DNA of 64,000 nucleotides from an uncultured Alphaproteobacteria bacterium (GTDB lineage: Bacteria; Pseudomonadota; Alphaproteobacteria; Rs-D84), in assembly GCA_944389185.1 (NCBI GenBank), contig CALXLL010000001.1, positions 24,061 through 88,060 on the forward strand, in the 5' to 3' direction. This document shows, piece after piece, positions 21,857 through 49,347 of this stretch. Position numbers and translations under genes: made by a program. The notes beneath the pieces are model-generated. The model saw nothing but the letters and a program-made list of their open reading frames with translations. It did no database searches and was not told the DNA's origin. The number at the start of each line of letters is the position of its first letter. The first letter of the stretch is position 1.

Positions 21857-21917
21857 TTTTGTTTCCTTTGGAAGTATAGTTATATTTAAAGTTATTTTGT
21901 TTTTGTGACAACGAAAA

Positions 21918-21971
21918 TTATTCCCCAAAAGGGGATGATGATTTATTAAAAAAACTTGTTTTTAACCACAT
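21918..21971 (-). CDS. Putative serS leader peptide MWLKTSFFNKSSSPFGE
   Basis: 17-codon ORF with TCA TCA TCC run plus one AGT, ending 61 nt before the serS ATG; overlaps TCCCC-TTTT-GGGGA hairpin. Confidence 0.75.
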   Translation of the reverse strand: MWLKTSFFNKSSSPFGE

Positions 21972-21978
21972 GGTTAAA

Positions 21979-22007
21979 ATTATATATAAATTATATATAA
22001 AAATCAA
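21979..22007 (-). promoter_or_regulatory. sigma70-type promoter for the serS leader
   Basis: TTGATT (22007-22002), 17 nt, TATAAT (21984-21979); leader ATG begins 8 nt after the -10 box. Confidence 0.75.
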
Positions 22008-22089
22008 ATATTTTACTGCTTATAAAAAGATTTGCGAAGCTTTGCTTATTATGTTATGCTGACCCAGAAAGGCATTTAGGAGATTTTAT

Positions 22090-23001
22090 ATGAACGACAT
22101 TATTATGCATGATGTTATAATTTTAGGTTCTGGGCCTGCTGGTTTAACTGCTGCGCTTTATTGTGCACGTGCCGGAAAAAAAACATTAGTCCTTGGGGGG
22201 GATAGGTTAGGTGGGCAGACTGCTGGTATCGCGGTGCTGGAAAATTATCCGGGTTGGCAGGGAAGTGGTCAAGAGTTAGCCGAGTTCATGAAAAAACAAG
22301 CAGAAACTTTTGGTGCAGAAATTATTTTTACTTCTGCAAAAAACGTTTCCGGAGATGCAGAAAGCGCTTTCAATATTTTGGCAACAGACGGGAAAAGATA
22401 TGTTGGTAAAACACTTATCATAGCAACAGGTGCTTCCCCGCGTAAGCTGGAAATAGAAGGTGCTCGCGAATTATTCGGTAAAGGCGTTTCTTATTGTGCA
22501 ACTTGTGACGGATTCTTTTATGCATATAAAGACGTTATTGTTTTAGGTGGGGGTAATTCAGCTTTGAACGATGCTTTGTATTTAGCCGATATTGCAAAAA
22601 GCGTAAAAATCGTTTATAGGAAAGCTGCTTTTACGCGCGCCGAAGCCGTATTGCGTAATCGCGTTGCAGAACGAGAAAATATAGAATGCTTGTTTAATAC
22701 AGACTTGAAAAAGATTTCTACGTTACCAGATTCTGATAGGCTTGTTGTGACGACAACCGATGATACGGAAATAATATGTGATGGTTTGTTCGTTGCTATA
22801 GGGCATGAAGCTAATACCGATTATTTACCAGAAGATATTTTACGTGATAATATGGGGCGCTTAATACCATCAGAATTACCAGAAGGTATGTTCGTTGCCG
22901 GTGACGTTCAATCCGAATTAAAAATGCAAATTGCAACCGCTGTTGGGACAGGGTGCAGTTCTGCCATGGATGCAATCGCATATTTAAATTCGCGTGGTTA
23001 A
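22090..23001 (+). CDS. trxB: Thioredoxin reductase
   Basis: GSGPAG, GVSYCATCDG, GGGNSA, FVAIGH, AGDV. Confidence 0.92.
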   Translation: MNDIIMHDVIILGSGPAGLTAALYCARAGKKTLVLGGDRLGGQTAGIAVLENYPGWQGSGQELAEFMKKQAETFGAEIIFTSAKNVSGDAESAFNILATDGKRYVGKTLIIATGASPRKLEIEGARELFGKGVSYCATCDGFFYAYKDVIVLGGGNSALNDALYLADIAKSVKIVYRKAAFTRAEAVLRNRVAERENIECLFNTDLKKISTLPDSDRLVVTTTDDTEIICDGLFVAIGHEANTDYLPEDILRDNMGRLIPSELPEGMFVAGDVQSELKMQIATAVGTGCSSAMDAIAYLNSRG

Positions 23002-23037
23002 AAAATAAAGCTCTGTTTTATCAGAGCCTTATTTTTT
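23001..23037. terminator. Probable bidirectional terminator
   Basis: GCTCTG...CAGAGC stem flanked by A- and T-rich tracts between convergent genes. Confidence 0.6.
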
Positions 23038-23532
23038 ACCAAAGTGTTTTTTTAATGTTTCATATGCTTCCGATATTTTTGTGAATTGCTTGGCAGCTGT
23101 TGATTTTTCTTGTGCTGTATCGGGGTGATATTTTTTTGCTAACGTGCGATACTTTGTGCTTATTTCACGCCACGAAGCACTGATTGGTAACCCAAAAACC
23201 GTTAAAGCTGATATTATTTTAGATGGTAGTTTTGATGGGGTAGGTGACTTGTCAAAAGAACTTCGCCCCATTATAAAATCGTTTAAAAACTTTATATAAT
23301 CTGCCGATTCAGCTTCTGACTTTGCTTTATCCTTTAATGGAGCACCAAAAGTTTGTCTTTCCCAATCTTCTTCTATTTCTTCAGGGCTCATGTTTTCATA
23401 ATAATTCCAGTTTTTATTGTATTCTGCTGCGTGTTCTTGGCAGAAAAACCAATAATCTTTTAAGTCTCTATTTTTTGGCGCACGACAAGTCCCAGCCTTG
23501 GTGCAACCAGGGTGATCACATTTTTTTATCAT
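23029..23532 (-). CDS. Alphaproteobacterial J-domain protein with Cys/His-rich N-terminus
   Basis: CDHPGC...RAPK...WFCQEH.AEYNKNWNYY and C-terminal J domain with HPD. Confidence 0.88.
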   Translation of the reverse strand: MIKKCDHPGCTKAGTCRAPKNRDLKDYWFFCQEHAAEYNKNWNYYENMSPEEIEEDWERQTFGAPLKDKAKSEAESADYIKFLNDFIMGRSSFDKSPTPSKLPSKIISALTVFGLPISASWREISTKYRTLAKKYHPDTAQEKSTAAKQFTKISEAYETLKKHFGKK

Positions 23533-24395
23533 TTATCTGCTGCCTTTATTTCCCCAAGCGGATGATGTTTTAAAACTGTTTCTTTTAATTTGTCTGGCAA
23601 TACATGCGTATATATCTGAGTAGTAGAAATGTCTTCGTGACCAAGCATCGTCTGTATAATACGTAAATTAGCACCGCCTGCTAGTAAATGTGAGGCAAAA
23701 GAATGCCTTAATACGTGTGGACTGACCCTGTGTGGATCTATGCCAGCAAGAATTGCACACTGTTTCAGTATCTTAAAAAAACCGTCCCTTGTGATATGAC
23801 CTGTTTTACTGTTGCTGGGGAAAACGTATTTTGATTTATCGTCTTCACGTAATGCCAGCCATTTTTGTAAAGCGTGCATAGCCGTTTCATGTATTGGAAC
23901 GATTCGTTCTTTCGCACCTTTGCCGTGTATTAGCAACTTGTCACCAAGAATCGCAGATGTTGGAAGTTCACACAATTCCGATACGCGCAACCCAGATGCG
24001 TATAGTAATTCTATCATGGCGCGTAATCGGACGCTGTGTCTGGTATCGCCGGCTGATGATATTAATAGTTCTATCTCGTCAACAGATAAAAACTTTGGTA
24101 AAGCTCTGTTTCTTTTCGGCAATTCTAAATTAGCAGCAGGATTTTCTGTAATTATTTTTTCTAGCATTAAAAACTTATAAAAACCGCGCAAAGCACTTGC
24201 TTTCCTGGCAATAGAAGAGGGTCTGTCAGGTAGCGAAGACAAATATGCCTGGACTTGATTTTGGCTTGCTTTTAATAAACCACCAGAAATGCTTTCGTCT
24301 GCATGATTCAAGTCACTTGCATAGCTTTCAAGCGTTTTTTGACTTCTTCCTTTCTCGGCTGACAAAGCTTCTAAAAATATATCTATATAGTTCAT
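23529..24395 (-). CDS. xerD: Tyrosine recombinase XerD
   Basis: LYASGLRVSEL, GKGAKER, SPHVLRHSFASHLL.GGA.LR, LGHEDISTTQIYTH. Confidence 0.9.
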   Translation of the reverse strand: MNYIDIFLEALSAEKGRSQKTLESYASDLNHADESISGGLLKASQNQVQAYLSSLPDRPSSIARKASALRGFYKFLMLEKIITENPAANLELPKRNRALPKFLSVDEIELLISSAGDTRHSVRLRAMIELLYASGLRVSELCELPTSAILGDKLLIHGKGAKERIVPIHETAMHALQKWLALREDDKSKYVFPSNSKTGHITRDGFFKILKQCAILAGIDPHRVSPHVLRHSFASHLLAGGANLRIIQTMLGHEDISTTQIYTHVLPDKLKETVLKHHPLGEIKAADK

Positions 24396-24520
24396 GGATA
24401 TAAAACTATTTCTGTCATATTTTGAACAGGGTCAAAAGATATTATCATTAATATTATTAATATAATAATAACCCCAAGTATTAAATATTTTTTATAAGAT
24501 TTGTTTTTCTTTATAGGCAT
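24392..24520 (-). CDS. Small membrane protein (42 aa), not in ORF track
   Basis: MPIKKNKSYKKYLILGVIIILIILMIISFDPVQNMTEIVLYP; GAGGA RBS; ATGA overlap with the xerD start. Confidence 0.7.
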   Translation of the reverse strand: MPIKKNKSYKKYLILGVIIILIILMIISFDPVQNMTEIVLYP

Positions 24521-24535
24521 ATTTTGTCCTCGTTT

Positions 24536-25597
24536 TTATATTGTATCAAAACTAGCAATAAACGCACCTGCGCCAGCTATTATTATAAGTGGGGGCGCTA
24601 TTATAGCAAGCAGTGGCGGTAAAGCACCTGTGGCACCAAGTGCGTTAAACATGTTCGTTAAAAAATATACGGCAAAGCAGGTTAATATACCTAAACCAAA
24701 CTTTAACCCAAAACTGTAATTTCTGCGTTGCCTTGTCTGAGAAAAAGCAATGCCTAATGTAGCCATTGCTATCATGGTTAAAGGTAGAAATAACAGTGTC
24801 CAAAATTGAACCAAGTGACCTCGAACAGGGGCCCCTATAGATTCCATTTTTTTTATAAAACCCGCTAAATCCCAAAATGAAATCTGATCGGGCTGTAAGT
24901 ATCTATCTAAGACTGTTTGTGGCGTAATTAACGTTTGTATATGCCAATCTTGCCTTTTATGCGTGCCGTTGTTATCCCATATATCGGCATTCGTGGCTGA
25001 TAAACCTTTATCAGATAAAATAACCGATTCAGATTCTATCCTGTTTGTTAATTTAAAGTTTTTATCTTGTGTATATATATTAGTAGTGTAAAACACAAGA
25101 TTATCGCCTTGCTTTTGCATACCTTTTGCATTCAAGGTTATATATCCAATATCGGACGATTCTCTTAACCATATAGAGTTATCTACTAGCTGTAAATGAT
25201 CAGGAGTTATGTTTTTTGAATTAAGACCAACAGAATACGGATTTATTACCGTGGTGGCAAATATACCTATTAAAGCAGCACCAATTAAAAACGGTTTTGA
25301 TGATTGATATGGTGATAAACCTGCGCTGGACACAATGATACTTTCGCTGGATTTTATAAGATTATAAGAAGCAAACAACGTTCCCATGAAAACTGCCAAA
25401 GGTAAAAAAAGCGGAACGTATTCCATTAGTCTTACCCAAGATTCTATTAACGCGTCTATAGCCGTAGGATTATCCGGCAGTCTTTCGACAAAGGTTACTG
25501 CTAATATTATACCGCAAACTATCAGCATAATAAGACCAAAGCCAGAAAAAAATCTGCGCATCAGAAATCTTGTTAATATTTTAGGTTTCAATACCAT
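24536..25597 (-). CDS. LPS export permease, LptF/LptG family (LptG-like)
   Basis: 3 TM + periplasmic domain + 3 TM; SSAGLSPYQ, IWLRE, ALPPLLAIIAP. Confidence 0.85.
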   Translation of the reverse strand: MVLKPKILTRFLMRRFFSGFGLIMLIVCGIILAVTFVERLPDNPTAIDALIESWVRLMEYVPLFLPLAVFMGTLFASYNLIKSSESIIVSSAGLSPYQSSKPFLIGAALIGIFATTVINPYSVGLNSKNITPDHLQLVDNSIWLRESSDIGYITLNAKGMQKQGDNLVFYTTNIYTQDKNFKLTNRIESESVILSDKGLSATNADIWDNNGTHKRQDWHIQTLITPQTVLDRYLQPDQISFWDLAGFIKKMESIGAPVRGHLVQFWTLLFLPLTMIAMATLGIAFSQTRQRRNYSFGLKFGLGILTCFAVYFLTNMFNALGATGALPPLLAIIAPPLIIIAGAGAFIASFDTI

Positions 25598-25699
25598 ATC
25601 CTTTATATTTATAGATATAAAAGTATAACTTGTTCAATTGACAATTGCAAAATTAAAATGAATGCTTATAATTTCATAATAAAAATAGGATTGAATAAA

Positions 25700-26170
25700 A
25701 TGGAAAAAAAGCCGGTTTCGCGCGAAGGTTTTGATGCGCTTGTTAAAGAACTTAAAGATTTAAAAGAAGTTCAAAGACCTGAAATATTAAAAACTGTTCA
25801 ATGGGCAAGGTCTTTGGGCGATTTGTCAGAAAATGCAGATTATAGCGCTGCAAAGGAAAAACAAAGACAGATTGATAAAAGAATTCAATTTATAGAATCT
25901 TTTATAGATAATGCCGTTGTAATAGATATAGACAGTCTGTCCGGGGATAGGGTCGTTTTTGGGGCAAAAGTTATTGCAGAAGATGAAAACGGTAATAAAA
26001 TGCAATGTCGTATATTGTCCGATATAGAATCTGACGGTAAGCAAGTTATATCTTGCACTTCTCCGGTTGGTAGGGCTTTGATAGGTAAATGCGTAGGCGA
26101 TACGTGCATTGTGAAATTGCCAAGCGGCGAAAAAGAATACGAGATTCTAGAAATAAAATTCAAGGAATAG
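25700..26170 (+). CDS. greA: Transcription elongation factor GreA
   Basis: ARSLGDLSENADY.AAKE, ISCTSPVGRALIGK; start probably MEKKP at 25700. Confidence 0.95.
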   Translation: MEKKPVSREGFDALVKELKDLKEVQRPEILKTVQWARSLGDLSENADYSAAKEKQRQIDKRIQFIESFIDNAVVIDIDSLSGDRVVFGAKVIAEDENGNKMQCRILSDIESDGKQVISCTSPVGRALIGKCVGDTCIVKLPSGEKEYEILEIKFKE

Positions 26171-26174
26171 TTTG

Positions 26175-27899
26175 ATGCCTATAAGGGTGCTACCTGATTT
26201 TTTAATAAATCAAATTGCTGCGGGTGAAGTAGTTGAAAGACCTGCCAGCGTTGTTAAAGAGCTGGTTGAAAACGCTTTGGATGCAGGTGCAGACGAAATC
26301 GTAATAGATGTAACAGATGGTGGCAGAACCCTTATAAGTGTTATGGATAATGGTTGTGGAATGTCAAAAGAAGACTTGCAGAACAGTATTCAAAGACACG
26401 CCACTTCTAAATTACCTGATGATGATTTATTAAATATTTCTTATATGGGGTTTCGTGGGGAAGCTTTACCTTCTATCGCTTCAGTATCAGATATGACGAT
26501 AGATACGTGTAATGGTATCGATGATAACGGATGGTCTTTAAATTGTAATACAGGCGAAATAAGACCTTGTGATTGGGAAAGTGGGACAAGAATACGTGTT
26601 AAAAACTTATTCGCAAGAACTCCTGCCAGATTAAAGTTTTTACGAACCGATAAGGCAGAAATGATGTCCGTTCTGGAAGTTGTTAAGCGTTTAGCTATGG
26701 CTTGTAATGACGTAGGTTTTACTTTAAATAATAAATGGCGATTCCCGAAAAAACAAGATTTTCAAGAACGTATAGTTGCCATTATGGGTGAAGACGTTAG
26801 AGGTAGAATGCTGGAAGTCCAAGCACAGTCTTTATCTAATTCTAGGTTAAAATTAAAAGGCGTTATTTCAGAACCTACGTTAAGAAGGGCTTCTTCTGTT
26901 GACCAATATTTATTTGTAAACGGTAGACCTGTTAAAGATAAGGTTTTGGTGGGTGCGTTAAGGGCCGCATATATGGATGTAATGCATGCACGTGAGTTCC
27001 CGCTATGTGCACTGTATCTTGACATAGATCCACGTCATGTTGATGTAAATGTTTCCCCCGCGAAAACAGAAGTCCATTTCTTGGAACCTTCACACGTTCG
27101 GGGGTTTATTATAAAAAACCTTCGCGAAGTTTTATCCAAGACTTTGTCTGAAAGACAATCAAGTAAAACTAGTTTCGACTTTGTATCAGCTTCTATACCT
27201 GTGTATAAACCAAAACAAGATTTTTCTGTAAATGTTGATTTGTTCAGATTGCATTCTCCGGATAAACCAACAGATGTTGGCGAGTTTATGCAAGCGTTTG
27301 TCGATAAAAAAAATCAAGACTTTTCATCTAATCTTTTACCCTTGGGAAAGGCAATAGGACAAATTGGCAATAAATATATTCTGGCCGAAAAAGAAAATGC
27401 TTTGGTAATAATAGATCAGCATGCTGCACACGAAAGAATAACTTATGAAAAAATAAGAAATCATACAGTTAAAACTCAACCTTTGTTAACGCCGATCGTT
27501 GTCGGTTTAAAAACAGAAGATGTAGATGCTGTGTTAACTATTGAATCAGAACTTAGAGCGTCTGGGCTGGTAATAGAAGCTTTCGGAGAAGATGCCATAG
27601 CCATTTTTGAAAAACCTGCTGATTGGGATTTAAATTGGAAAGAAGTTTTTCAGGCTATTGCAGATGAAGTTCGTGCAAACGGTCATTCGTCTGTCCTTAA
27701 CGAAAAGCTGCATTTGAAATTGGCTAATTACGCTTGCCATCATTCTGTCAGGGCAGGTCAAAAATTAGACTTAAATCAAATGAATGCGTTGCTGCGTGAT
27801 ATAGAAAATACTGAACGCGGGTCTGAATGTAATCATGGTAGACCAGTTTATAAAATTATACCTTTTTCAGAGTTGGATTCTTGGTTTGAAAGAATATAA
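26175..27899 (+). CDS. mutL: DNA mismatch repair protein MutL
   Basis: NQIAAGEVVERPASVVKELVEN, GFRGEAL, DQHAAHERI endonuclease motif, ACH, CNHGRP. Confidence 0.98.
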   Translation: MPIRVLPDFLINQIAAGEVVERPASVVKELVENALDAGADEIVIDVTDGGRTLISVMDNGCGMSKEDLQNSIQRHATSKLPDDDLLNISYMGFRGEALPSIASVSDMTIDTCNGIDDNGWSLNCNTGEIRPCDWESGTRIRVKNLFARTPARLKFLRTDKAEMMSVLEVVKRLAMACNDVGFTLNNKWRFPKKQDFQERIVAIMGEDVRGRMLEVQAQSLSNSRLKLKGVISEPTLRRASSVDQYLFVNGRPVKDKVLVGALRAAYMDVMHAREFPLCALYLDIDPRHVDVNVSPAKTEVHFLEPSHVRGFIIKNLREVLSKTLSERQSSKTSFDFVSASIPVYKPKQDFSVNVDLFRLHSPDKPTDVGEFMQAFVDKKNQDFSSNLLPLGKAIGQIGNKYILAEKENALVIIDQHAAHERITYEKIRNHTVKTQPLLTPIVVGLKTEDVDAVLTIESELRASGLVIEAFGEDAIAIFEKPADWDLNWKEVFQAIADEVRANGHSSVLNEKLHLKLANYACHHSVRAGQKLDLNQMNALLRDIENTERGSECNHGRPVYKIIPFSELDSWFERI

Positions 27900-37430: not shown

Positions 37431-38698
37431 TTTAGTTTTTCTCTTAAACCATCCCAATAATCAAGACGTTTTTTTATTTCTCGTTCAAATCCGCGCTCAA
37501 TAGGTATATAAAACTTTTGTCTTGGCATTGTTTCTGGAAAACAGTTTTGACCGCTGAAACCAAGCTCGGTATCAGGTTCGTAAATATAGTTTGCACCGTA
37601 ACCAAGTTTTTTCATCATTTTTGTCGGTGCGTTTAATATATTTTTTGGCGGCATTAAACTGCCTGTTGTTTTTGCAACTGCGTATGCAGATGTCTGGGCT
37701 TTATAATTACTGGTGCTTTTGGGGCATGTTCCAAGATATATAACAAGTTCTGTTAAAGCAAGATCGCCTTCTGGACTGCCCATTCTTTCATATATTTGCC
37801 ATGCACTTAAGGCAATTTGCATGGCATTCGGATCTGCAAGACCTATGTCTTCCATAGCAAAACGTGTAAGCCTGCGGAATAAATACATTGGGTCTTGACC
37901 AGATGTCATCATTCGGGCAGTCCAATACAATGCTGCATCAGTATCACTTGCACGCAAAGATTTATGCACAGCAGAAATTAAATTATAATGCTCGTCACCG
38001 GATTTGTCGGATAAAGGAGCCCGCTTTTGTATAGCGTTGTCTAATCCGTCGCTATCTAATTTTTTCTTAAAATTTGCTGATACAAGGTATTCAATAGTAT
38101 TTAATAAAAATCTGGCATCTCCATCTGCCATTTGGGCAAGATGAATTTTGGCGTTTTCGTCTAATGGGACTTTCTTGTTTAGGTATTTTTCTGCCCGTTC
38201 AAGTAATGTTAATAGGTCTTTTTCATTTAATGGTTCTAACACACCTATGTGACATCTTGATAACAACGCGTTATTTAAGTTAAAACTGGGGTTTTCTGTC
38301 GTGGCACCTATAAACACAACTGTCCCATCTTCTAAGTATGGTAACAATGTATCTTGCTGGGTTTTATTAAATCTATGAATTTCATCTATGAAAAGTAAGG
38401 TTGATCGCCCCATTTGCTGATTAAGTTTTGCTGCTTCCATTGCTTTCTTTATATCTGCAGTTCCTGAAAATACGGCGGACATAGGAACAAAATCCATATC
38501 AACGGAATTAGCAAGCGCTTTCGCAATAGTCGTTTTTCCACATCCTGGGGGACCCCATAAAATTAAATTTGATAGTTTACGATTTTCTACCATGCGACGC
38601 ACCAAGCCATTGTCACCAAGTAATTGCTGTTGACCGACTATTTCATCTATCGTTTCGGGACGCATTAAATCTGCAAGTGGTCTGGTTGAGTCTTTCAT
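37421..38698 (-). CDS. rarA: Replication-associated recombination protein RarA/MgsA
   Basis: PLADLMRP, GPPGCGKTT, DEIHRFNK, GATTENPSF, SAVHKSLR, EDIGLADP. Confidence 0.96.
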   Translation of the reverse strand: MKDSTRPLADLMRPETIDEIVGQQQLLGDNGLVRRMVENRKLSNLILWGPPGCGKTTIAKALANSVDMDFVPMSAVFSGTADIKKAMEAAKLNQQMGRSTLLFIDEIHRFNKTQQDTLLPYLEDGTVVFIGATTENPSFNLNNALLSRCHIGVLEPLNEKDLLTLLERAEKYLNKKVPLDENAKIHLAQMADGDARFLLNTIEYLVSANFKKKLDSDGLDNAIQKRAPLSDKSGDEHYNLISAVHKSLRASDTDAALYWTARMMTSGQDPMYLFRRLTRFAMEDIGLADPNAMQIALSAWQIYERMGSPEGDLALTELVIYLGTCPKSTSNYKAQTSAYAVAKTTGSLMPPKNILNAPTKMMKKLGYGANYIYEPDTELGFSGQNCFPETMPRQKFYIPIERGFEREIKKRLDYWDGLREKLNKK

Positions 38699-43034: not shown

Positions 43035-43044
43035 ATAACAATTA

Positions 43045-43479: not shown

Positions 43480-43480
43480 T

Positions 43481-43981
43481 TTATTCCATTCCTCTGCCTG
43501 CTGCAAGTTGTGCAGCTATTTGACTAAGTCTATCTTCTGTTGCATTACCTCCATCACCTCCAGACGCTGTATGTGCTGGAATATAAATCTTTTTTGCTGG
43601 ATTCGGTAACCATATAATAGGTTTTTCAGACTGTTCTATTATAAATCTGTCCATGTTGTAGGAGTGAGGAAAAGTTTTACACATAAACATATTTTCTGAA
43701 TCTATTTTCCCACCCCATAATATCGGTATCCTGAATCTTATAGATAGATTGTTCGGTATGCTGGTTCCCATAAGAAGCCCGATAAATTCGTCTTGTGAAA
43801 GATTTAGCATCGCAAGTTCTTGAACCGAATCGGATAAACCTTGTATGAATTCTTTACATGCTTTTTTATATTCCTTAAACCAATCAGAACTAAGGCTGTT
43901 TGGACGAGGCTGAAATTGCATAATGGGCAAATCGTCCATTCGTAAATCTGCTAATCGTCTTTCAGCATCTTTTTTTTCCAT
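43481..43981 (-). CDS. Hypothetical protein, degenerate HNH toxin-like
   Basis: PNNLSIRFRIPILWGGKIDSENMF resembles P.G..VHH..PL..GG.N...NL with the His residues lost. Confidence 0.5.
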   Translation of the reverse strand: MEKKDAERRLADLRMDDLPIMQFQPRPNSLSSDWFKEYKKACKEFIQGLSDSVQELAMLNLSQDEFIGLLMGTSIPNNLSIRFRIPILWGGKIDSENMFMCKTFPHSYNMDRFIIEQSEKPIIWLPNPAKKIYIPAHTASGGDGGNATEDRLSQIAAQLAAGRGME

Positions 43982-43985
43982 TTGT

Positions 43986-44861
43986 CTAGCCTCGATTTAT
44001 AAAGTCTATCACAACATTTATATATTCTGAAAATGCGTTAAAAGTCTCTAATTCGTCTTTATCTGTGGGCGTCGGATCCGCAGGGTTAGACTTTATGAAG
44101 TCTGCTAGCTCTGATATAGAGTTGAATATAAATATATCGTCGTTGTTATCAGTTGTATCAGATGGTTTAAATATAAAAGCATTTATGTTTATTGTTAAAT
44201 CTTCAAGACTGTCTACGAATAATTTATTTAGTTCTGTAACTGCTTGCTTCATTTCTAGCGTGGAAATGTTCTCGGCGCCCATCCATACAACTTCATTTGG
44301 GGCAATTGCAAATAAAACTGTTTTTATACCCGATATATTAGGAGTCTTTTTTATTGTGTATCCATATCTTTTAAAGATGTCTATGATATCGTCTTTTTGG
44401 GTTGTATACGATGGTTCTATTGGTAAAGTTTTTGGTGTGCTGTCGTGTATCACTGGAATATGTTGAATGGTTTGTTTTGGCAGGTTTAATTTTGGTGGTC
44501 GTATATCGCTGTATGAAGATGTGGGTGTGGACTGCAAAGTTTTTTCTTCGTTGATATCTGTGTTTTCTTTATCTTTGGTTTGGTTTGAAGTGTTTGTTGC
44601 TGATGCAAAGTTTATTTTTCTAAATCTTGGTCTTATTATAATATACAAACCAAGTAATGTTATTAATGTTGCAATCGCTAAAGAGATATAAAAAGACACA
44701 TTTACGGAATTATTGGTTGCTTGTAGTTGCGCCAGGTATGACCAATGCGCACCAGAAAATAAGTCAAAACCAAATCTTATGTTAAACCAAAAGCTTGTAG
44801 CTAAAACTGCTGCAAGCAGCCAAAGTATACCAAGTAAAAAGTTATCTATTCTTTTTTTCAT
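43986..44861 (-). CDS. Two-TM membrane protein with Pro/Thr-rich linker and cytoplasmic domain
   Basis: Two N-terminal hydrophobic helices, low-complexity linker, alpha/beta C-terminal domain. Confidence 0.75.
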   Translation of the reverse strand: MKKRIDNFLLGILWLLAAVLATSFWFNIRFGFDLFSGAHWSYLAQLQATNNSVNVSFYISLAIATLITLLGLYIIIRPRFRKINFASATNTSNQTKDKENTDINEEKTLQSTPTSSYSDIRPPKLNLPKQTIQHIPVIHDSTPKTLPIEPSYTTQKDDIIDIFKRYGYTIKKTPNISGIKTVLFAIAPNEVVWMGAENISTLEMKQAVTELNKLFVDSLEDLTININAFIFKPSDTTDNNDDIFIFNSISELADFIKSNPADPTPTDKDELETFNAFSEYINVVIDFINRG

Positions 44862-44904
44862 TTGGTTTTAATTATATCATATTTATGATAAACTATAAAG
44901 CGTT

Positions 44905-45579
44905 ATGATAAACTATGATTACATTTTGCAAGATTTTCCCTTTGTTAAAGCGGCTTGGGCAAAGCAGATAGATGATGATATGGATTTAGCACGAATCGCT
45001 GATTCGGCTTTGCAAAATAAAATTGCTGACCTGTCGGTTCAGCCGGAATACGTGTCTAAGTTATGGGCATGGTTAGAAAATAAAAAAGTAAAAATTATTG
45101 CTAGGTTTTATGCAGAAAATATAAAAAAAAATACAGAAAATAATATTTCTTTGTTAACCGAAAATATTAATGCTTGTTTTAAGCAAGGGGCCGACGGGGT
45201 TCAGGTTTTTATAAAGAAAAATGATGTTTCTGTTTTCGCGGATCAATTATGCTTAATTCGTGATGATTTGTTTTTTAACAAAACGCTTTCCATAGGTTTA
45301 AATCTATCAGATTTGTATACTGCAGATTTAAAATCTTTATTTATTTCGTTAAAAAAAATAAAAGCCGATTCGTTGCTTCTTGTTCTGACAAAAGACGAAG
45401 GTGATAAGTCTGATTTTGTTGGAAGAGTATATGGGATTCTTTCTTCTTGGGATGACGAATTTTATGGTGCTTTGCATTTTGTAATTGGCGATAACTCAGT
45501 TAGAGTCGAACAAGTAATAAGATTGGTTCAAAAGGTTCGACCAGAGCTTTTACAAAAAATAAGATTTTTTATGAGTTAG
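44905..45579 (+). CDS. Hypothetical protein, possible degenerate DeoC-like TIM barrel
   Basis: LSVQPEYV and ACFKQGADGVQVFI recall aldolase barrel strands; low certainty. Confidence 0.6.
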   Translation: MINYDYILQDFPFVKAAWAKQIDDDMDLARIADSALQNKIADLSVQPEYVSKLWAWLENKKVKIIARFYAENIKKNTENNISLLTENINACFKQGADGVQVFIKKNDVSVFADQLCLIRDDLFFNKTLSIGLNLSDLYTADLKSLFISLKKIKADSLLLVLTKDEGDKSDFVGRVYGILSSWDDEFYGALHFVIGDNSVRVEQVIRLVQKVRPELLQKIRFFMS

Positions 45580-45608
45580 TATTCTTGTATATACAGCTTG
45601 TATATACA

Positions 45609-46244
45609 TTAAATCTGGGGTTTTTCAAATATTAAGTATTTTGGATGGTTTGTTTCTGCCATGTTCTTTCTTTGATATCTTGTTTGAATTGTGTGTAGGT
45701 CTGGTTCTGAAAATGTTAAACCTGATTTAGTCGCTTTTTCTTTTATCCAATCAAAATATCCCCAGTGGTCTGTGCCTATGATTATTTGACCAGAAGGTGC
45801 CAGCCTGTTTAATAAGAGCTTTATAAAATCTGGTTGTAAAAGACGCCTTTTTTCATGTCTTGCTTTTGGCCATGGGTCTGGGTGTAAAATCCATATTTCT
45901 TCAAAGAGATATTGCGAATCGATAAGAATCTGTCTTACGTCATCTGGCCAAATCCTGATGTTTTTATATTGTGGCAAGATACCGTTTCTTTCGTCTGTAA
46001 TTGCAGAAAGCAGGGCAGCAACACCATTTACGAAAGGTTCGGCACCAATAATGGTCTTGTTTGGGTGTTCTAAGGCAAGCGTGCGAAGGTGTTCGCCGGC
46101 ACCAAAGCCTATTTCTAGTATTAAGTTTTTTTCTTTAGATGTCGGTAAAATGTTTGGTAAAACATTTTCAATCAGCCATAGTTTTCTGGCGGATAGCTTT
46201 TTACCATGTCTGCGTCCAAATGTTCTTATTTCTTGTTTTTCCAT
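45609..46244 (-). CDS. trmB: tRNA (guanine-N7)-methyltransferase TrmB
   Basis: LEIGFGAGEHL, GAEP, PDPWPKARHEKRRL, TD, TRYQRK. Confidence 0.96.
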   Translation of the reverse strand: MEKQEIRTFGRRHGKKLSARKLWLIENVLPNILPTSKEKNLILEIGFGAGEHLRTLALEHPNKTIIGAEPFVNGVAALLSAITDERNGILPQYKNIRIWPDDVRQILIDSQYLFEEIWILHPDPWPKARHEKRRLLQPDFIKLLLNRLAPSGQIIIGTDHWGYFDWIKEKATKSGLTFSEPDLHTIQTRYQRKNMAETNHPKYLIFEKPQI

Positions 46245-46291
46245 ATTATTAGTATAAAATTGAAAAAAGCATAAAACAAGGAATTAAAAAA

Positions 46292-46843
46292 ATGGTAGAT
46301 TTTCCAAAAAGGATAAAATCAGATGGTTTTTGGCTTGAAAAGGTAAAACCAACTTTTGAAGTTGCTAATCATTTATTTAATATCGTGAAAAATCAGAGGG
46401 CTTATTTGGCAAAGTGGTTAGAATGGGTTGATTTTTCAAATAGCCCGGAAGATATGTATCCACATCTGTTAAAATCTTCGCAAACCAATAATGCAAATTA
46501 CTATATTGTTTTGAATAAAGAAGTTATAGGTGCTATTAGTTTTGTTAATTTTTCAGAAAAAAATAAAATTGCAGAAATTGGTTATTGGTTGTCTTTTACT
46601 TATAATGGTAAAGGCATAATGACAAAGGCTGTTAAAACTTTGGAAGATTATGGTTTTCAAAAATTAAAGTTAAATAGAATCGAAATAAGGGCTGATATTG
46701 AAAATAAAAAATCATGGAAAGTTCCTGTTAGGGCAGGTTATAAAAAAGAAGGTATACTTAGACAGTCTTATATGTTGCGTGGCGAAGCACGTGATATAAT
46801 TGTTTATTCAAAATTGAAATCGGAATGGGAAAAAGGGAAATAA
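46292..46843 (+). CDS. GNAT acetyltransferase, RimJ/RimL family
   Basis: AEIGYWL...GKGIMT, LNRIEI, N.KS..VP.R.G..KEG.LR. Confidence 0.9.
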   Translation: MVDFPKRIKSDGFWLEKVKPTFEVANHLFNIVKNQRAYLAKWLEWVDFSNSPEDMYPHLLKSSQTNNANYYIVLNKEVIGAISFVNFSEKNKIAEIGYWLSFTYNGKGIMTKAVKTLEDYGFQKLKLNRIEIRADIENKKSWKVPVRAGYKKEGILRQSYMLRGEARDIIVYSKLKSEWEKGK

Positions 46844-46845
46844 AA

Positions 46846-48426
46846 ATGCGTAAAGGTTTGTCAGCAGATTTGATTAGTCGTGTGCTGGGTGGGGCACCAA
46901 AATATACTTTGGCAGAATTAGAAGCAAAGTATCCACCGCGTGATTTGCCAGATGGCGCTTTTGTTACGCGTTTTGCACCCAGCCCAACCGGATATATGCA
47001 TATTGGTGGTGTGTATCAAGCTTTGATTGATTATAAGTTAGCTCAACAATCTGGCGGTGTTTTTATGCTTCGTATAGAAGATACAGATACTAAACGTGAA
47101 GTAAAAGATGCTGTTAAAGTTATCGAAGATTCTATGCATAGATTTGGTTTTGAATACGACGATAAAGAACAGTATGGACCTTATTTTCAATCTGAAAGAA
47201 AAGATATTTACCATAGTATTGCAGCCGATTTGCTGGCTCGTGGGTTAGCTTATCCTTGCTTTTTGACCGCAGAAGAAATGGAAAAAATTCGTGAAAATCA
47301 AAAAGCTGCAGGATTCCCAACCGGTATTTATGGTGAATTTGCACGTGACCGCGATATTTCAGAAGAAGAGATAGTTCGTCATTTGGATGCCGGTGAAGTT
47401 CCTTCTATTCGTTTGTATTCAATGGGTAACCCAGAAAATAAGATTTTTTGCAAAGACGCTGTTCGTGGCTCTATTGGGTTTCCAGAAAATAACGAAGATA
47501 TAGTTTTAATAAAATCAAATGACGGTTTACCAACATACCATTTCGCTCATTTATGTGACGACCACTTTATGCGCACAACGCACGTTGTTCGTGGTGAAGA
47601 GTGGCTGCCTTCATTCCCGCTGCATACACAACTTTTTCGTATGATGGGCTGGCAACAACCTTTATATATTCATACTGCAACTATTGACAAAATTGATCCA
47701 GAAACGGGTAAACAAAGAAAGTTATCAAAACGTCACGACCCAGAAGCTAATGTAGTGTTTTTCTTGGCGGATGGTTGGCCCGTTAAAGCAATTATAGATT
47801 ATCTGGGTAATATAGCTGCTTCTGGATACGAAGAAGCAAAGGTAAAAGGGCAGGTTAAATCTTTTTGGGATTTTGAATTGCGTCCAAAGAAAATACCTAT
47901 GTCTGGCGTTCTTTTTGATATGAAAAAGCTAGAGTGGTGGGCAAAAGAGTATATCGGGACGTTGCCTGTTGATGAATTGGTAAAATATGTTCGTGATTGG
48001 GCGAATGAATATGATGCGCAATGGGCGGCTCGAATCGCGATTTCTCCAGAATATTTGAAAAACATATTGGCGATTGAACGAGATAATCCAAAACGTATCC
48101 GTAAAGACTTCATTACTTGGAAGCAAACTTTGCAGGAAGTATCTTACTTCTGGGACGATTTGTATGTGCCGAACGCAGAATATGAATTTAATAAAGATGT
48201 ATTAAACGCATTTTTAGAAAACTTTGATATCTGTGATGATAAAGACGCTTGGTGGGCAAAAATCGTAGAAATTGCGAATCGCTTTGGTGTTAAAAATGGT
48301 GACGTTGCTATGAATTTGCGCGTTGCTTTGTCGGGACGCACCAATACACCAGACTTGTATTCTATTATGCAGGTTATGGGTAAAGACAGAGTTATTGGAC
48401 GCATAAAGGATATAATAAATGGTTAA
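46846..48426 (+). CDS. gltX: Glutamyl-tRNA synthetase
   Basis: TRFAPSPTGYMHIG, LRIEDTD, PTYHFA, HVVRGEEW, KLSKR. Confidence 0.95.
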   Translation: MRKGLSADLISRVLGGAPKYTLAELEAKYPPRDLPDGAFVTRFAPSPTGYMHIGGVYQALIDYKLAQQSGGVFMLRIEDTDTKREVKDAVKVIEDSMHRFGFEYDDKEQYGPYFQSERKDIYHSIAADLLARGLAYPCFLTAEEMEKIRENQKAAGFPTGIYGEFARDRDISEEEIVRHLDAGEVPSIRLYSMGNPENKIFCKDAVRGSIGFPENNEDIVLIKSNDGLPTYHFAHLCDDHFMRTTHVVRGEEWLPSFPLHTQLFRMMGWQQPLYIHTATIDKIDPETGKQRKLSKRHDPEANVVFFLADGWPVKAIIDYLGNIAASGYEEAKVKGQVKSFWDFELRPKKIPMSGVLFDMKKLEWWAKEYIGTLPVDELVKYVRDWANEYDAQWAARIAISPEYLKNILAIERDNPKRIRKDFITWKQTLQEVSYFWDDLYVPNAEYEFNKDVLNAFLENFDICDDKDAWWAKIVEIANRFGVKNGDVAMNLRVALSGRTNTPDLYSIMQVMGKDRVIGRIKDIING

Positions 48427-49168
48427 GTCAAAAAAAGAAATTCGCACAAAGTTAAAGCAAGTGAAAAAAGATAAGCATGCTTCAAGATTGCTTCGTATAT
48501 TAAGAGCAACAGGGCTTTTTCGTTGGGAACGTCCTTCAACTAAATCAGAAGAAGTTTTGAACATTTTGACGCACGGTATTGGTATAGGTTTGGCTATTGC
48601 AGGTTTAACTTTGCTTGTCGTGTTTGCTTCTTTGAAGGGTGATCCTTGGGCTATCGTATCTTGCGCTATTTTCGGTCTTACCATGTTTACTTTGTATTTC
48701 GGGTCTACAATGTGTCATGCAACAATCGGAAAAAAGAGCGAATGTTTCTTTGAGGTTTGGGATAGCGCTGCTATCTATGCGTTGATAGCCGGCACATACA
48801 CGCCTTTTTTACTTGTTAATCTAAGAGGTGCTTTGGGGTGGACAGTGTTCGGTATTTTATGGGCTATCGTTATATTCGGTTCTATTATGAAAATGCGCAG
48901 CCCAAAGCAACAACCAAAGTGGATGGTGCTTTTATATCTTATTATGGGGTGGACTTTGATCTTTATTTTACCCGCTATGTTAAAAGCAATACCTGCGCGC
49001 GGTTTATGGTTCATCTTGGCAGGCGGTTTGTCTTATACTATCGGAGTCATTTTCTATGTATGGCGTAAAATGAAGTATTCTCACGTAATTTGGCACTTGT
49101 TCGTTATTGCCGGCAGCGTTTGTTTCTTTTTCGCCGTTTTGTTCGGTTGCGTAATAGACGTAATATAA
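48419..49168 (+). CDS. Hemolysin III / PAQR family membrane protein
   Basis: EEVLNILTHG, S..CH, D.AAIY.LIAGTYTP, GG..YT.G, HVIWHLFV. Confidence 0.92.
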   Translation: MVKSKKEIRTKLKQVKKDKHASRLLRILRATGLFRWERPSTKSEEVLNILTHGIGIGLAIAGLTLLVVFASLKGDPWAIVSCAIFGLTMFTLYFGSTMCHATIGKKSECFFEVWDSAAIYALIAGTYTPFLLVNLRGALGWTVFGILWAIVIFGSIMKMRSPKQQPKWMVLLYLIMGWTLIFILPAMLKAIPARGLWFILAGGLSYTIGVIFYVWRKMKYSHVIWHLFVIAGSVCFFFAVLFGCVIDVI

Positions 49169-49170
49169 GA

Positions 49171-49199
49171 TTGACTTAGCGACTTTTTGGTATTAATAT
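49171..49199 (+). promoter_or_regulatory. sigma70-type promoter for the thrS leader
   Basis: TTGACT (49171-49176), 17 nt, TAATAT (49194-49199). Confidence 0.7.
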
Positions 49200-49209
49200 A
49201 AAGCTTGTT

Positions 49210-49269
49210 ATGAATTATTTTTGTAAGATTTTCTTTATAACTAATACCACAACCCCTTTGGGGGTATAG
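49210..49269 (+). CDS. Putative thrS leader peptide MNYFCKIFFITNTTTPLGV
   Basis: 19-codon ORF with ACT AAT ACC ACA ACC, ending 78 nt before the thrS ATG; overlaps ACCCC-TTTG-GGGGT hairpin. Confidence 0.75.
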   Translation: MNYFCKIFFITNTTTPLGV

Positions 49270-49347
49270 TTTCTATTTGCGATTGTTCGCGCTCTTTTAT
49301 ATAATCTGTTTAATTAAAAAAATAATAACAATAAAAGGATTTTTATT

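What the first reader, a model, noticed from the sequence alone, without database searches (positions are those of the whole stretch)
21857..49347. Two aminoacyl-tRNA synthetase genes share one compact leader-peptide design: a candidate undescribed attenuation system
Seen: serS (leader 21971-21918, minus strand) and thrS (leader 49210-49269, plus strand), 27 kb apart, have the same upstream layout. A sigma70-like promoter is followed 7-10 nt after the -10 box by an ATG with no Shine-Dalgarno. The 17-19 codon ORFs both fit FF-x(2-3)-[cognate amino acid x3]-P-[F/L]-G-x-stop (FFNKSSSPFGE*, FFITNTTTPLGV*). In both, the last cognate codon supplies the start of a CCCC-TTT(T/G)-GGGG hairpin. After the stop come similar short elements (TTTTCGTTGTCAC / TTTGCGATTGTTCGC), then an AT-rich spacer to the synthetase RBS. 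The triplet matches the downstream synthetase in each case, which is unlikely by chance. Known: serS and thrS are controlled by T-boxes in Firmicutes, and thrS by a tRNA-mimic operator in E. coli; leader-peptide attenuation of a synthetase is classic for E. coli pheST and uses alternative terminator/antiterminator stems. I do not see such alternative stems here. Inference: a ribosome stalled on the cognate codons physically covers the single hairpin or a Rho-loading region and permits read-through. This would be a minimal, near-leaderless attenuator that may be used across the synthetase regulon of this lineage.
Basis: partly seen in the sequence, partly recalled or inferred. Interest (0 to 1): 0.92.

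Follow-up and report, generated by a model that had tools for sequence, protein, structure and literature searches.

The report
Compact leader peptides before tRNA synthetases
Short upstream reading frames rich in the matching amino acid, each running straight into a small hairpin, precede several tRNA-synthetase genes in a tiny-genome gut bacterium and probably let it sense shortage of that amino acid; the kind is known, this minimal form is not.

Summary
Both leader ORFs are where stated, and CCCC-N3-5-GGGG occurs in the 796-kb genome only at these two sites. The lineage is a reduced-genome gut alphaproteobacterium; the closest named ThrRS records are Candidatus Enterousia, order Rs-D84.

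Conservation:
- thrS leader: 26 of 29 relatives' loci.
- serS leader: 13 of 30 loci.
- Cognate codons vary synonymously, and Ser uses both AGY and TCN codons.

The hairpin is the conserved element, not the P-x-G tail. Some relatives stop inside the loop, and one has a compensated CCGC/GCGG stem.

The same design also precedes hisS and trpS: a promoter, a start codon 5-10 nt after the -10 box, about 14 codons, and a hairpin starting in the last cognate codon. ileS and lysS carry classical terminator/antiterminator leaders, and aspS has a T-box-like leader. Ten other synthetase genes showed nothing.

Leaderless leader peptides before synthetase genes are already reported in Streptomyces, so this is a new variant of a known kind. 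The mechanism is not shown. Most likely a ribosome stalled on the cognate codons masks a weak terminator. No expression data could be obtained.

The parts
49171..49199 (+). P1, promoter-like site of the thrS leader (TTGACT-17-TAATAT). The ATG follows 10 nt after the -10 box, so the leader mRNA is inferred to be leaderless or nearly so.
   Evidence: 9 of 12 matches. The -35 and -10 columns are conserved in the 23-sequence alignment A2. The gap from -10 to the start codon is 4-10 nt, mode 7, in 25 of 26 thrS leaders.
49210..49269 (+). thrS leader ORF, MNYFCKIFFITNTTTPLGV*.
   Evidence: An equivalent ORF is present in 26 of 29 relatives' thrS loci that have upstream sequence.
49246..49254 (+). 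Three consecutive Thr codons (ACC ACA ACC), codons 13-15. A further Thr codon lies at 49240-49242.
   Evidence: the last three codons before the hairpin are Thr in 23 of 23 genus leaders. Third positions vary (codon -2: ACT 15, ACA 5, ACC 3).
49252..49265 (+). H1, hairpin ACCCC-TTTG-GGGGT. It starts at the first base of the last Thr codon and lies inside the ORF.
   Evidence: -8.9 kcal/mol. It is invariant in 23 genus sequences and flagged terminator-like by the scan.
49266..49277 (+). U-rich tail after H1 (ATAGTTTCTATT). It holds the stop codon TAG at 49267-49269.
   Evidence: mean U fraction 0.50 in the 15 nt after H1, against 0.31 in the rest of the spacer (26 thrS leaders).
49278..49291 (+). 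H2, second hairpin TGCGA-TTGT-TCGCG. It overlaps the -35 and spacer of P2.
   Evidence: A 3-6 bp hairpin is predicted at this place in 23 of 23 genus leaders. Stem sequences differ and stay complementary (GCGA/UCGC, GCGG/CCGC, GCAC/GUGC, GCGC/GCGC; read by eye).
49277..49305 (+). P2, second promoter-like site (TTGCGA-17-TATAAT), 42 nt before the thrS ATG.
   Evidence: 10 of 12 matches; a match of at least 9 of 12 lies between H1 and thrS in 21 of 26 leaders, against 4.6 expected from shuffles.
49335..49339 (+). Shine-Dalgarno-like AAGGA of thrS.
   Evidence: Read; aligned AAGG.
49348..51081 (+). thrS, threonine--tRNA ligase.
   Evidence: TIGR00418, 693.1 bits (cut-off 383.65).
21979..22007 (-). 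P1, promoter-like site of the serS leader (TTGATT-17-TATAAT). The ATG follows 7 nt after the -10 box.
   Evidence: 10 of 12 matches; the same geometry is found in 10 of 12 serS leaders.
21918..21971 (-). serS leader ORF, MWLKTSFFNKSSSPFGE*.
   Evidence: Present in 11 of 24 genus loci and 2 of 6 loci from other families.
21933..21941 (-). Three consecutive Ser codons (TCA TCA TCC), codons 11-13.
   Evidence: the last two codons are Ser in 13 of 13 leaders. Further upstream, Ser is written with both AGT and TCT/TCG.
21922..21935 (-). H1, hairpin TCCCC-TTTT-GGGGA. It starts at the first base of the last Ser codon.
   Evidence: -9.1 kcal/mol. Flagged terminator-like by the scan.
21907..21921 (-). 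U-rich tail after H1 (ATAATTTTCGTTGTC). It holds the stop codon TAA at 21920-21918.
   Evidence: No promoter-like site follows in this genome.
21864..21868 (-). Shine-Dalgarno-like AAGGA of serS.
   Evidence: Read.
20576..21856 (-). serS, serine--tRNA ligase.
   Evidence: TIGR00414, 402.9 bits (cut-off 301.65).

Best explanation
These are translated leader peptides on leaderless or nearly leaderless transcripts. They report, in cis, how well the cognate tRNA is charged.

Proposed sequence of events:
1. Promoter P1 starts an RNA at or just before the ATG.
2. About 14 codons in, the ribosome meets 2-3 or more codons for the amino acid of the downstream synthetase.
3. The last of these codons forms the first pair of the only conserved hairpin, H1. 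With its U-rich tail, H1 acts as a weak intrinsic terminator or pause for P1 transcripts.
4. A ribosome waiting on the last two or three cognate codons holds the 5' arm of H1 in its mRNA channel. H1 cannot form, and transcription runs on into the synthetase gene.
5. Without such a ribosome, H1 forms and part of the P1 transcripts end.

thrS, and hisS in most relatives, have in addition their own promoter-like site P2 downstream of the leader. P2 would give a basal level to which read-through is added. serS of this genome has no such site and would depend on read-through.

Shown: the anatomy, its conservation, selection on the cognate codons at the amino-acid level, and restriction of the design to synthetase genes.
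Inferred: the transcription start, translation of the ORF, termination at H1, and the sign of the response.
For: Cognate link and coding constraint:
- thrS leader in 26 of 29 loci, serS in 13 of 30, hisS in 20-21 of 21 genus loci, trpS in 10 of 23 genus loci.
- Thr codons vary only at the third base.
- Ser is written with AGT (4), TCT (4) and TCG (1) at one leader position.

Hairpin rather than peptide:
- The stop codon lies in the loop in 2 thrS relatives.
- One serS stem is CCGC/GCGG.
- hisS stems differ and stay complementary (CGCCC/GGGCG, CACGCUG/CAGCGUG, CACGCCAC/GUGGCGUG).
- On the fixed-register hisS alignment, 3 of 500 shuffles reach the observed paired share or the observed double changes.

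Geometry:
- The first paired base lies 0-3 nt into the last cognate codon in all four families.
- Exactly the last three Thr codons are invariant, 23 of 23. These are the positions from which a stalled ribosome would reach the stem. Codons further upstream are Thr in only 15-19 of 23.
- Start to last cognate codon is 12-16 codons, mode 14.

Terminator likeness:
- Both window hairpins pass the terminator scan, against 0.1-0.2 expected.
- H1 energies (means -6.2 to -9.9 kcal/mol) overlap those of the genome's hairpin+T5 sites (median -9.45).
- U fraction after H1 is 0.45-0.55, against 0.29-0.38 further on.
- In this genome's trpS leader the tail is UAUCUUUUU.

Specificity:
- A genome-wide scan for promoter + short ORF + hairpin + downstream gene returns only the thrS, trpS and hisS leaders. 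serS is lost to an ORF-overlap filter.
- The motif ACNACNACCCC-N3-4-GGGG is found in 263 of 328 genomes of the order, nearly always at one site.

Precedent in the same genomes: ileS has a leader (4 Ile codons, -10 box 7 nt before the ATG in this genome) with a classical terminator in 24 of 24 genus loci.
Against: - There is no antiterminator, and only one conserved structure.
- With one hairpin that lies inside the ORF, a ribosome that passes normally also melts it. A ribosome closely coupled to the polymerase cannot be nearer than roughly 30 nt (recalled figure). The design therefore does not by itself explain how termination would be favoured when the amino acid is plentiful. Timing or pausing must be assumed.
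- The U tract is interrupted and starts 2-8 nt after the stem.
- P2 lets thrS and hisS be transcribed without the leader.
- The covarying hairpins H2 (thrS) and the one after the hisS -10 box lie upstream of the predicted P2 start. They must act in read-through RNA in a way this model does not explain.
- The serS leader is missing in 13 of 24 genus loci, so it is dispensable.
- No transcript starts, ends or ribosome footprints could be obtained.
- Single-sequence folding is not significant.
Confidence: 0.5

Rival explanations
1. Control after transcription. H1 does not terminate. A ribosome held on the cognate codons near the 5' end stabilises or processes the P1 transcript. Two routes are possible: it shields the 5' end from decay, or cleavage at the stalled ribosome leaves H1 as a protective 5'-terminal stem-loop.
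For: - A lasting stall differs from a passing ribosome only for slow processes on finished RNA. This avoids the timing problem.
- The hairpin starts 0-3 nt into the last cognate codon, so a cut there would leave a hairpin almost flush with the new 5' end.
- The stall site lies about 40 nt from the 5' end in all four leader families.
- Stabilisation of erm mRNA by stalled ribosomes, and protection by 5' stem-loops, are recalled from the literature and not looked up here.
Against: - Nothing was tested.
- It does not explain the U-rich tail.
- It does not explain why the classical ileS and lysS leaders of the same genomes use true terminators.
- The nucleases involved were not searched for.
Confidence: 0.15
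2. Rho-dependent attenuation. The G-poor, C-containing leader RNA is a Rho entry site. A stalled ribosome, with others queued behind it, covers the site and spares the transcript. H1, H2 and the -10-like box act as pause sites.
For: - rho is present (TIGR00767, 657.3 bits).
- The cognate runs plus the 5' arm are C-rich and G-free (ACNACNACCCC, UCAUCAUCCCC).
- There is no antiterminator.
- Seliverstov et al. raise Rho for leader peptides without terminators (PMC1262725, passage).
- tnaC is a recalled precedent.
Against: - The exposed stretch is only about 45-55 nt and is U-rich rather than C-rich.
- The spacer to the gene is A-rich and short, 60-90 nt.
- It does not explain why the codons must abut the hairpin.
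Confidence: 0.12
3. A coupling gauge with the opposite sign, as in pyrBI. A ribosome that keeps up with the polymerase prevents H1 and gives read-through. Slow decoding of cognate codons lets the polymerase run ahead, so H1 forms and transcription ends. Synthetase output then follows translation capacity.
For: - H1 lies inside the ORF, and the stop codon is in or just after it, as in the recalled pyrBI leader.
- The fixed 14-codon distance is close to what a ribosome loaded at the 5' end needs to stay just behind a polymerase that reaches the U tract (own estimate).
- Long Thr runs of 5-7 codons begin too far upstream for an early stall to reach H1.
Against: - The best-conserved cognate codons are the last two or three, which touch the stem.
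- hisS and trpS leaders have only 1-2 cognate codons, placed at the junction. A delay device would not need that placement.
- Making less synthetase when charging is low runs against all known synthetase controls.
Confidence: 0.1
4. Translational attenuation, as in the mycobacterial poly-Cys short ORFs. The stalled ribosome opens a structure that otherwise hides the synthetase ribosome-binding site.
For: - The leaderless short ORF with cognate codons is the same layout (10.1101/834739, abstract).
- In this genome's thrS leader the best fold pairs CUCUUUUA with the Shine-Dalgarno region.
- Predicted accessibility rises somewhat for hisS (0.45 to 0.58) and trpS (0.36 to 0.47).
Against: - For thrS and serS the predicted accessibility of the Shine-Dalgarno-to-AUG stretch hardly changes: 0.49 to 0.51 and 0.53 to 0.59.
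- H1 lies 60-90 nt from the site, and its 3' arm has no conserved partner.
Confidence: 0.05
5. Not regulatory. The ORFs are chance frames, or small genes with their own terminator, that merely lie upstream of the synthetase genes.
For: - No expression data.
- P2 could serve thrS alone.
- The serS leader is often absent.
Against: - Four different synthetase genes each have the matching codons at the same place.
- Conservation extends across 17 of 30 genera for the thrS motif.
- Synonymous variation in the cognate codons.
- The genome-wide scan finds the design nowhere else.
Confidence: 0.03

Closest known systems
Leaderless leader peptides upstream of synthetase genes in Streptomyces lividans TK24 (thrL-thrS, alaL-alaS, trpL2-trpS, leuL2-leuS; PMC8079986, passages seen)
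   Same: Leaderless short ORFs with cognate codons directly upstream of the matching synthetase gene. For thrL the paper prints MKRVRPFLETTPGFVPAR* (Thr-Thr-Pro-Gly) and notes one hairpin and no U-rich stretch, much as here.
   Different: Another phylum, and found there by RNA-seq. No common geometry, no hairpin starting in the last cognate codon, and no serS or hisS leader is described in the passages I saw.
Classical leader-peptide attenuators of synthetase genes: E. coli pheST (recalled; named in PMC1262725) and the predicted trpS and leuS attenuators of Streptomyces (PMC1262725, passages)
   Same: A short ORF with codons for the amino acid of the downstream synthetase, and control of read-through by the position of the ribosome.
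   Different: Those have mutually exclusive antiterminator and terminator hairpins downstream of the ORF. Here there is a single hairpin inside the ORF and a start codon without a Shine-Dalgarno. The ileS and lysS leaders of this same genus are of the classical type.
Poly-cysteine leaderless short ORFs of mycobacteria, the 'Cys ribulon' (bioRxiv 10.1101/834739, abstract seen)
   Same: Leaderless short ORFs with consecutive cognate codons. A stalled ribosome blocks one RNA structure. Several loci share one signal.
   Different: [quoted passage not shown] Here the hairpin is far from the site, predicted accessibility barely changes, and the targets are synthetases.
pyrBI and pyrE attenuators of E. 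coli (recalled, not looked up)
   Same: The leader ORF runs into the terminator hairpin, and the ribosome prevents the hairpin physically, without an antiterminator.
   Different: The signal there is UTP-dependent pausing of the polymerase, not decoding of particular codons. There are no cognate codon runs.
T-box leaders (Rfam RF00230), the usual control of thrS and serS in Firmicutes
   Same: Same target genes and the same signal, charging of the cognate tRNA.
   Different: No T-box match at either leader. T-boxes bind tRNA directly and are about 200 nt long. A weak T-box-like match does precede aspS in this genome (29.3 bits).

Membership tests
Classical leader-peptide transcription attenuator (trp, his, pheST type) | A short ORF with a run of codons for the amino acid tied to the downstream gene | tested here: met
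   TTT before thrS and SSS before serS, conserved with synonymous variation.
Classical leader-peptide transcription attenuator (trp, his, pheST type) | A Rho-independent terminator between the leader and the gene | tested here: inconclusive
   H1 passes the simple terminator scan. Its stem energy is like that of other terminator-like sites in the genome. But the stem has only 4-5 pairs and the U tract is interrupted. Termination was not measured.
Classical leader-peptide transcription attenuator (trp, his, pheST type) | A mutually exclusive antiterminator structure | tested here: not met
   RNAalifold on 23 thrS leaders predicts only H1. On 21 hisS leaders it predicts only part of H1. No partner for the H1 3' arm was seen.
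Classical leader-peptide transcription attenuator (trp, his, pheST type) | A response of read-through to supply of the cognate amino acid | not testable with these tools
   Uncultured organism. The public runs held only contigs.
Leaderless sensory short ORFs (mycobacterial Cys type; Streptomyces leader peptides) | The transcript starts at or next to the start codon | tested here: inconclusive
   A conserved -35/-10 pair with the start codon 4-12 nt (mode 7 or 9) after the -10 box in 61 of 67 leaders examined, and no Shine-Dalgarno. No 5'-end mapping.
Leaderless sensory short ORFs (mycobacterial Cys type) | The stalled ribosome opens a duplex that hides the downstream ribosome-binding site | tested here: not met
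   Predicted unpaired probability of the Shine-Dalgarno-to-AUG stretch: thrS 0.49 free against 0.51 stalled; serS 0.53 against 0.59. This is a prediction only.
T-box riboswitch (RF00230) | A match to the covariance model, including specifier loop and T-box sequence | tested here: not met
   No match in the window at the gathering score. No match at E up to 1 on the loci holding the two leaders.
Known Rfam leader families (Thr, His, Trp leaders and others) | A match to any Rfam 15 model | tested here: not met
   nothing on the thrS, serS, hisS, trpS or ileS leaders.
pyrBI-type attenuator | The leader ORF overlaps the terminator hairpin | tested here: met
   H1 lies within the ORF. The stop codon is in the loop or 0-9 nt after the stem.
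pyrBI-type attenuator | The signal is nucleotide-dependent polymerase pausing | not testable with these tools
The cognate codons point to an amino-acid signal instead.

The most novel reading that the evidence does not exclude
A mechanistically new, minimal class of ribosome-sensing attenuator. It is a re-targetable cassette: a leaderless start, about 14 codons, then cognate codons fused to one small hairpin. It works without any alternative RNA structure.

Two routes could make it work:
- The distance from the 5' end is tuned to the ribosome-polymerase complex.
- A cut at the stalled ribosome leaves the hairpin as a protective 5' cap.

The cassette would have spread by duplication and codon exchange to at least four synthetase genes. 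Together they would form a synthetase 'ribulon' in bacteria that have lost amino-acid biosynthesis.
Probability: 0.3. Interest if true: 0.8.

Novelty: new variant of a known kind. Interest (0 to 1): 0.6.

Why it matters
Leader-peptide attenuation is a textbook mechanism, explained by competing RNA structures. Here four synthetase genes use a form with only one structure and a fixed geometry, alongside classical leaders (ileS, lysS) and a T-box-like leader (aspS) in the same 0.8-Mb genome.

If the single hairpin really gives an amino-acid-specific response, it would show the least that is needed for a ribosome to signal to the polymerase or to RNA decay. It would also be an easily re-targeted sensor, because changing three codons changes the amino acid sensed.

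It also shows where regulation is kept in a strongly reduced genome without amino-acid biosynthesis (PMC12306168, passages): on the charging enzymes themselves.

Serine-specific leader peptides before serS did not turn up in my literature searches. Those searches cover only the held library.

Tried and rejected
**Programmed frameshifting at the hungry codons.** The +1 frame after the Thr codons is open up to thrS in this genome. It is closed in 25 of the 26 thrS leaders, and the other frame in 24, so the idea was rejected.

**Translational attenuation through the Shine-Dalgarno.** Predicted accessibility is nearly unchanged for thrS and serS.

**A partner for the H1 3' arm, or any antiterminator.** None was found.

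**H2 as the regulated terminator.** No U tract follows it in most relatives.

**Peptide motif P-x-G.** Rejected in favour of the hairpin.

**Fixed-register covariation count on hisS.**
- Only modest: 78.9% of cells paired, 4 cells with a double change, 2 of 7 pairs with a change on both sides, which 120 of 500 shuffles also reach.
- Several stems are shifted in register, so per-sequence folds were used instead.
- The per-sequence script also returned false picks, which I dropped by eye before counting: L166 and L171 for hisS; L181, L196 and L198 for trpS. For L183 I replaced the script's pick with a leader read by eye.

**Single-sequence folding.** Gave no significance.

**Rfam.** Nothing on the leaders.

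**Expression.**
- The run search returned only assembled contigs.
- Laying X1-X4 on window 48800-50000 showed no starts or ends.
- The one true RNA run had no contig over the leader, which proves nothing.

**Other proteobacteria.** Of the 80 thrS loci scanned, only the 2 closest (L061, L062; 86% ThrRS identity, leader already known) and one spurious hit (L107) hold a Thr-rich short ORF; the remaining 77 have none.

**Left untested.**
- The short ORF with two Cys codons before cysS was not followed in relatives.
- The identities of several synthetase genes without leaders rest on Pfam hits alone.
- PF09334 and PF01406 were not searched, nor pheT or the amidotransferase route.

Full report
**What is there**

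- serS leader: window 21971-21918 on the minus strand, MWLKTSFFNKSSSPFGE*.
- thrS leader: window 49210-49269 on the plus strand, MNYFCKIFFITNTTTPLGV*.

The downstream genes are serS (20576-21856, TIGR00414 402.9 bits) and thrS (49348-51081, TIGR00418 693.1 bits).

Each ORF is preceded by a promoter-like site whose -10 box ends 7 nt (serS) or 10 nt (thrS) before the ATG, with no Shine-Dalgarno in between. In each ORF the last cognate codon supplies the first pair of a 5-pair hairpin: 21935-21922 and 49252-49265.

CCCC-N3-5-GGGG occurs nowhere else in the 796,082-base assembly. Folding of single sequences is not significant against shuffles, so the case rests on comparison.

**Whose genome**

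The assembly has 15 contigs and 36-41% G+C. The closest named ThrRS records, at 86% identity, are metagenome-assembled genomes titled Candidatus Enterousia sp. or Alphaproteobacteria bacterium from animal guts.

A paper on this group describes genomes under 1 Mbp in the order Rs-D84 that lack pathways for amino-acid biosynthesis (PMC12306168, passages). I took only the name of the lineage from those titles.

**Conservation and coding constraint**

thrS:
- Of 30 thrS loci from 41 related genomes, 29 have upstream sequence.
- 26 of these carry the leader: 23 of 23 in the genus, this genome included, and 3 of 6 from other families.

serS:
- 11 of 24 genus loci and 2 of 6 other-family loci carry the leader.
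- Where it is missing, serS either follows trxB directly or has a simple promoter.

Codon level:
- In the 23 genus thrS leaders the last three codons before the stem are always Thr.
- Their third positions vary: ACT 15, ACA 5, ACC 3 at codon -2.
- Codons further upstream are Thr in only 15-19 of 23.
- In the 13 serS leaders, one position writes Ser as AGT (4), TCT (4) and TCG (1). These are two unrelated codon boxes, which argues for selection on the amino acid rather than on the bases.

The motif ACNACNACCCC-N3-4-GGGG is found in 263 of 328 genomes of the order: 236 of 256 other genomes of the genus, and 17 of 30 genera. It is nearly always at one site, and the reversed control hits about ten times. 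Of the 80 proteobacterial thrS loci scanned, only L061 and L062 (the closest relatives, same leader) and L107 (spurious) hold a Thr-rich short ORF; the other 77 have none.

**The hairpin, not the peptide tail**

- Two thrS relatives end ..TTTP* or ..TTTTP*, with the stop codon in the loop.
- One serS relative has the stem CCGC/GCGG and the peptide ..SSSAMRG*.

The P-[F/L]-G-x ending is therefore what CCCC-loop-GGGG happens to encode.

**The design recurs**

I looked upstream of 16 further synthetase genes of this genome (identities of six confirmed).

hisS has MFYNALFFAGFHHTRMGGCF*, with a hairpin that starts in the last His codon.
- 20 of 21 genus loci show the same, and one is degenerate.
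- The stems differ and stay complementary. The fixed-register count is only modest.

trpS has MIDFDSYFVNLVWWRR*, with the stop codon in the hairpin loop and a UAUCUUUUU tail.
- 10 of 23 genus loci have such a leader, most with a single Trp codon at the junction (some script picks were dropped or replaced by eye, see Tried and rejected).

Features shared by all four families:
- The start codon lies 4-12 nt after a conserved -10 box.
- The last cognate codon is codon 12-16, mode 14.
- The first paired base lies 0-3 nt into that codon.

An unbiased genome scan for promoter + short ORF + hairpin + downstream gene returned only the thrS, trpS and hisS leaders. serS was lost to my ORF-overlap filter.

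**Other synthetase genes use other devices**

- ileS has a leader with four Ile codons followed by a clear antiterminator and terminator, in 24 of 24 genus loci and 0 of 6 others.
- lysS has a short ORF with 1-3 Lys codons and a conserved alternative pairing plus a terminator with U5-7, in all 20 genus loci fetched (read by eye).
- aspS has a weak T-box match: 29.3 bits against a gathering score of 93, E 0.002, with the AGGGUGGCACCGCG box.
- Ten further synthetase genes showed no cognate short ORF by eye.

The 'synthetase regulon' idea therefore holds for a subset only.

Between the thrS leader and thrS lies TTGCGA-17-TATAAT (49277-49305, 10 of 12 matches). A promoter-like match of at least 9 of 12 between H1 and the gene was counted against shuffles:

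| Gene | Leaders with a match | Expected from shuffles | Note |
|---|---|---|---|
| thrS | 21 of 26 | 4.6 | |
| hisS | 12 of 20 | 3.1 | 11 of the 12 with a TG-extended -10 box |
| serS | 9 of 12 | 2.5 | at varying places; none in this genome |
| trpS | 1 of 9 | 1.5 | |

- In thrS a second hairpin, H2 (49278-49291), sits in the -35 and spacer. It is predicted in 23 of 23 genus leaders, and its stems covary.
- In hisS a covarying hairpin follows the -10 box (read by eye).
- Both hairpins lie upstream of the predicted P2 start. They can exist only in RNA read through from P1. I have no tested explanation for them.

**How it most likely works**

The arguments for a cis-acting sensor of the cognate charged tRNA are strong:
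- The matching codons.
- Selection at the amino-acid level.
- Restriction to synthetase genes.
- The placement: exactly the codons from which a stalled ribosome would reach the stem are invariant.

That H1 is a weak terminator or pause rests on three points:
- The scan flags it.
- Its stem energies overlap those of the genome's hairpin+T5 sites.
- The U-rich tail.

The weak point is kinetic. A normally passing ribosome also melts a hairpin that lies inside the ORF, and there is no antiterminator. How termination is favoured in plenty is therefore not explained by the sequence.

Four rivals stay open:
- Control of RNA stability or processing.
- Rho, which is present.
- A coupling gauge of opposite sign.
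- Translational control, with less weight.

Frameshifting was excluded.

My odds:
- About 0.85 that these are cis-acting leader peptides that sense the cognate amino acid.
- About 0.5 for the full statement with H1 as a ribosome-masked terminator.

**Compared with what is known**

- Leader-peptide control of synthetase genes is known for E. coli pheST (recalled; also named in PMC1262725).
- It was predicted for trpS and leuS of Streptomyces (same paper, passages).
- It was proposed for hisS paralogues of bacilli (PMC2965389, passages).
- It was reported from RNA-seq, as leaderless ORFs before alaS, thrS, trpS and leuS, in S. lividans. That thrL peptide holds T-T-P-G, and the authors note one hairpin and no U stretch (PMC8079986, passages).
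- Leaderless poly-Cys short ORFs of mycobacteria act by unmasking a ribosome-binding site (10.1101/834739, abstract).

My searches found nothing on this lineage's leaders, on a serS leader peptide, or on such leaders in Alphaproteobacteria. The library is partial.

**Verdict**

It is a new variant of a known kind, found in a new lineage, with a minimal and uniform architecture shared by four synthetase genes. The mechanism and the sign of the response are inferred.

**Limits**

- No expression data.
- Paper supplements were closed.
- Counts for relatives come from a draw of 40 genomes, or 20 for lysS. Related genomes are not independent.

Noticed in passing
G000 contig C3, about 37550-37700 (-); locus L143/L207: ileS is preceded by a short ORF, MKQLNIIIIR* (-10 box 7 nt before the ATG), and a classical antiterminator/terminator (GGGGCGC-AUG-GCGCCUC followed by U7). 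The same is seen in 24 of 24 genus loci and in 0 of 6 loci from other families.
   Followed up: yes
G000 contig C13, 2643-2705 (-); locus L141/L147: hisS leader MFYNALFFAGFHHTRMGGCF*, with a hairpin starting in the last His codon. In relatives a TG-extended -10 box (TGATATAAT) follows, and then a further covarying hairpin plus a UUUUCCAUA motif. The role of that hairpin and motif is unexplained.
   Followed up: partly
G000 contig C8, 16141-16191 (-); locus L142/L177: trpS leader MIDFDSYFVNLVWWRR*, with the stop codon in the hairpin loop. Many relatives have a single Trp codon (..CWRVAA*) and extra GCCC/GGGC elements downstream. I could not resolve those elements into a structure.
   Followed up: partly
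G000 contig C1, 2941-3093 (+), upstream of aspS; locus L144:142-294: A weak T-box match (RF00230, 29.3 bits against a gathering score of 93, E 0.002). The AGGGUGGCACCGCG box and an AGUAGGG box are present, most of Stem I is missing, and GAC may be the specifier. A T-box in an alphaproteobacterium would be unusual.
   Followed up: partly
G000 contig C8, about 21100-21260 (-), upstream of lysS; loci L146, L237-L256: A short ORF with 1-3 Lys codons (MKINSKKSYN*; in relatives ..IKRF.. or ..KKF..). It is followed by a conserved GUGCGACC...GGACGCAC pairing and a terminator, GGACGC-loop-GCGUCC with U5-7, in all 20 genus loci fetched. Whether the ORF or another ligand is the sensor is open.
   Followed up: partly
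G000 contig C7, about 130-177 (+), upstream of cysS; locus L145: A short ORF, MRLFNINIYCCQSFH*, with two adjacent Cys codons and its own Shine-Dalgarno-like AAGGA. No GC hairpin follows. It may be chance.
   Followed up: no
window 21979-22100 and relatives L034-L054: serS lies head to head with a thioredoxin-reductase gene (22090-23001, TIGR01292 281 bits, below its cut-off of 343). In eight relatives serS instead follows that gene directly on the same strand and has no leader, so the leader comes and goes with gene order.
   Followed up: partly
window 49210-49350 (+): In this genome only, the best fold pairs CUCUUUUA (just after H2, overlapping the -10-like box) with UAAAAGGA at the thrS Shine-Dalgarno. 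The pairing is not conserved in relatives.
   Followed up: partly
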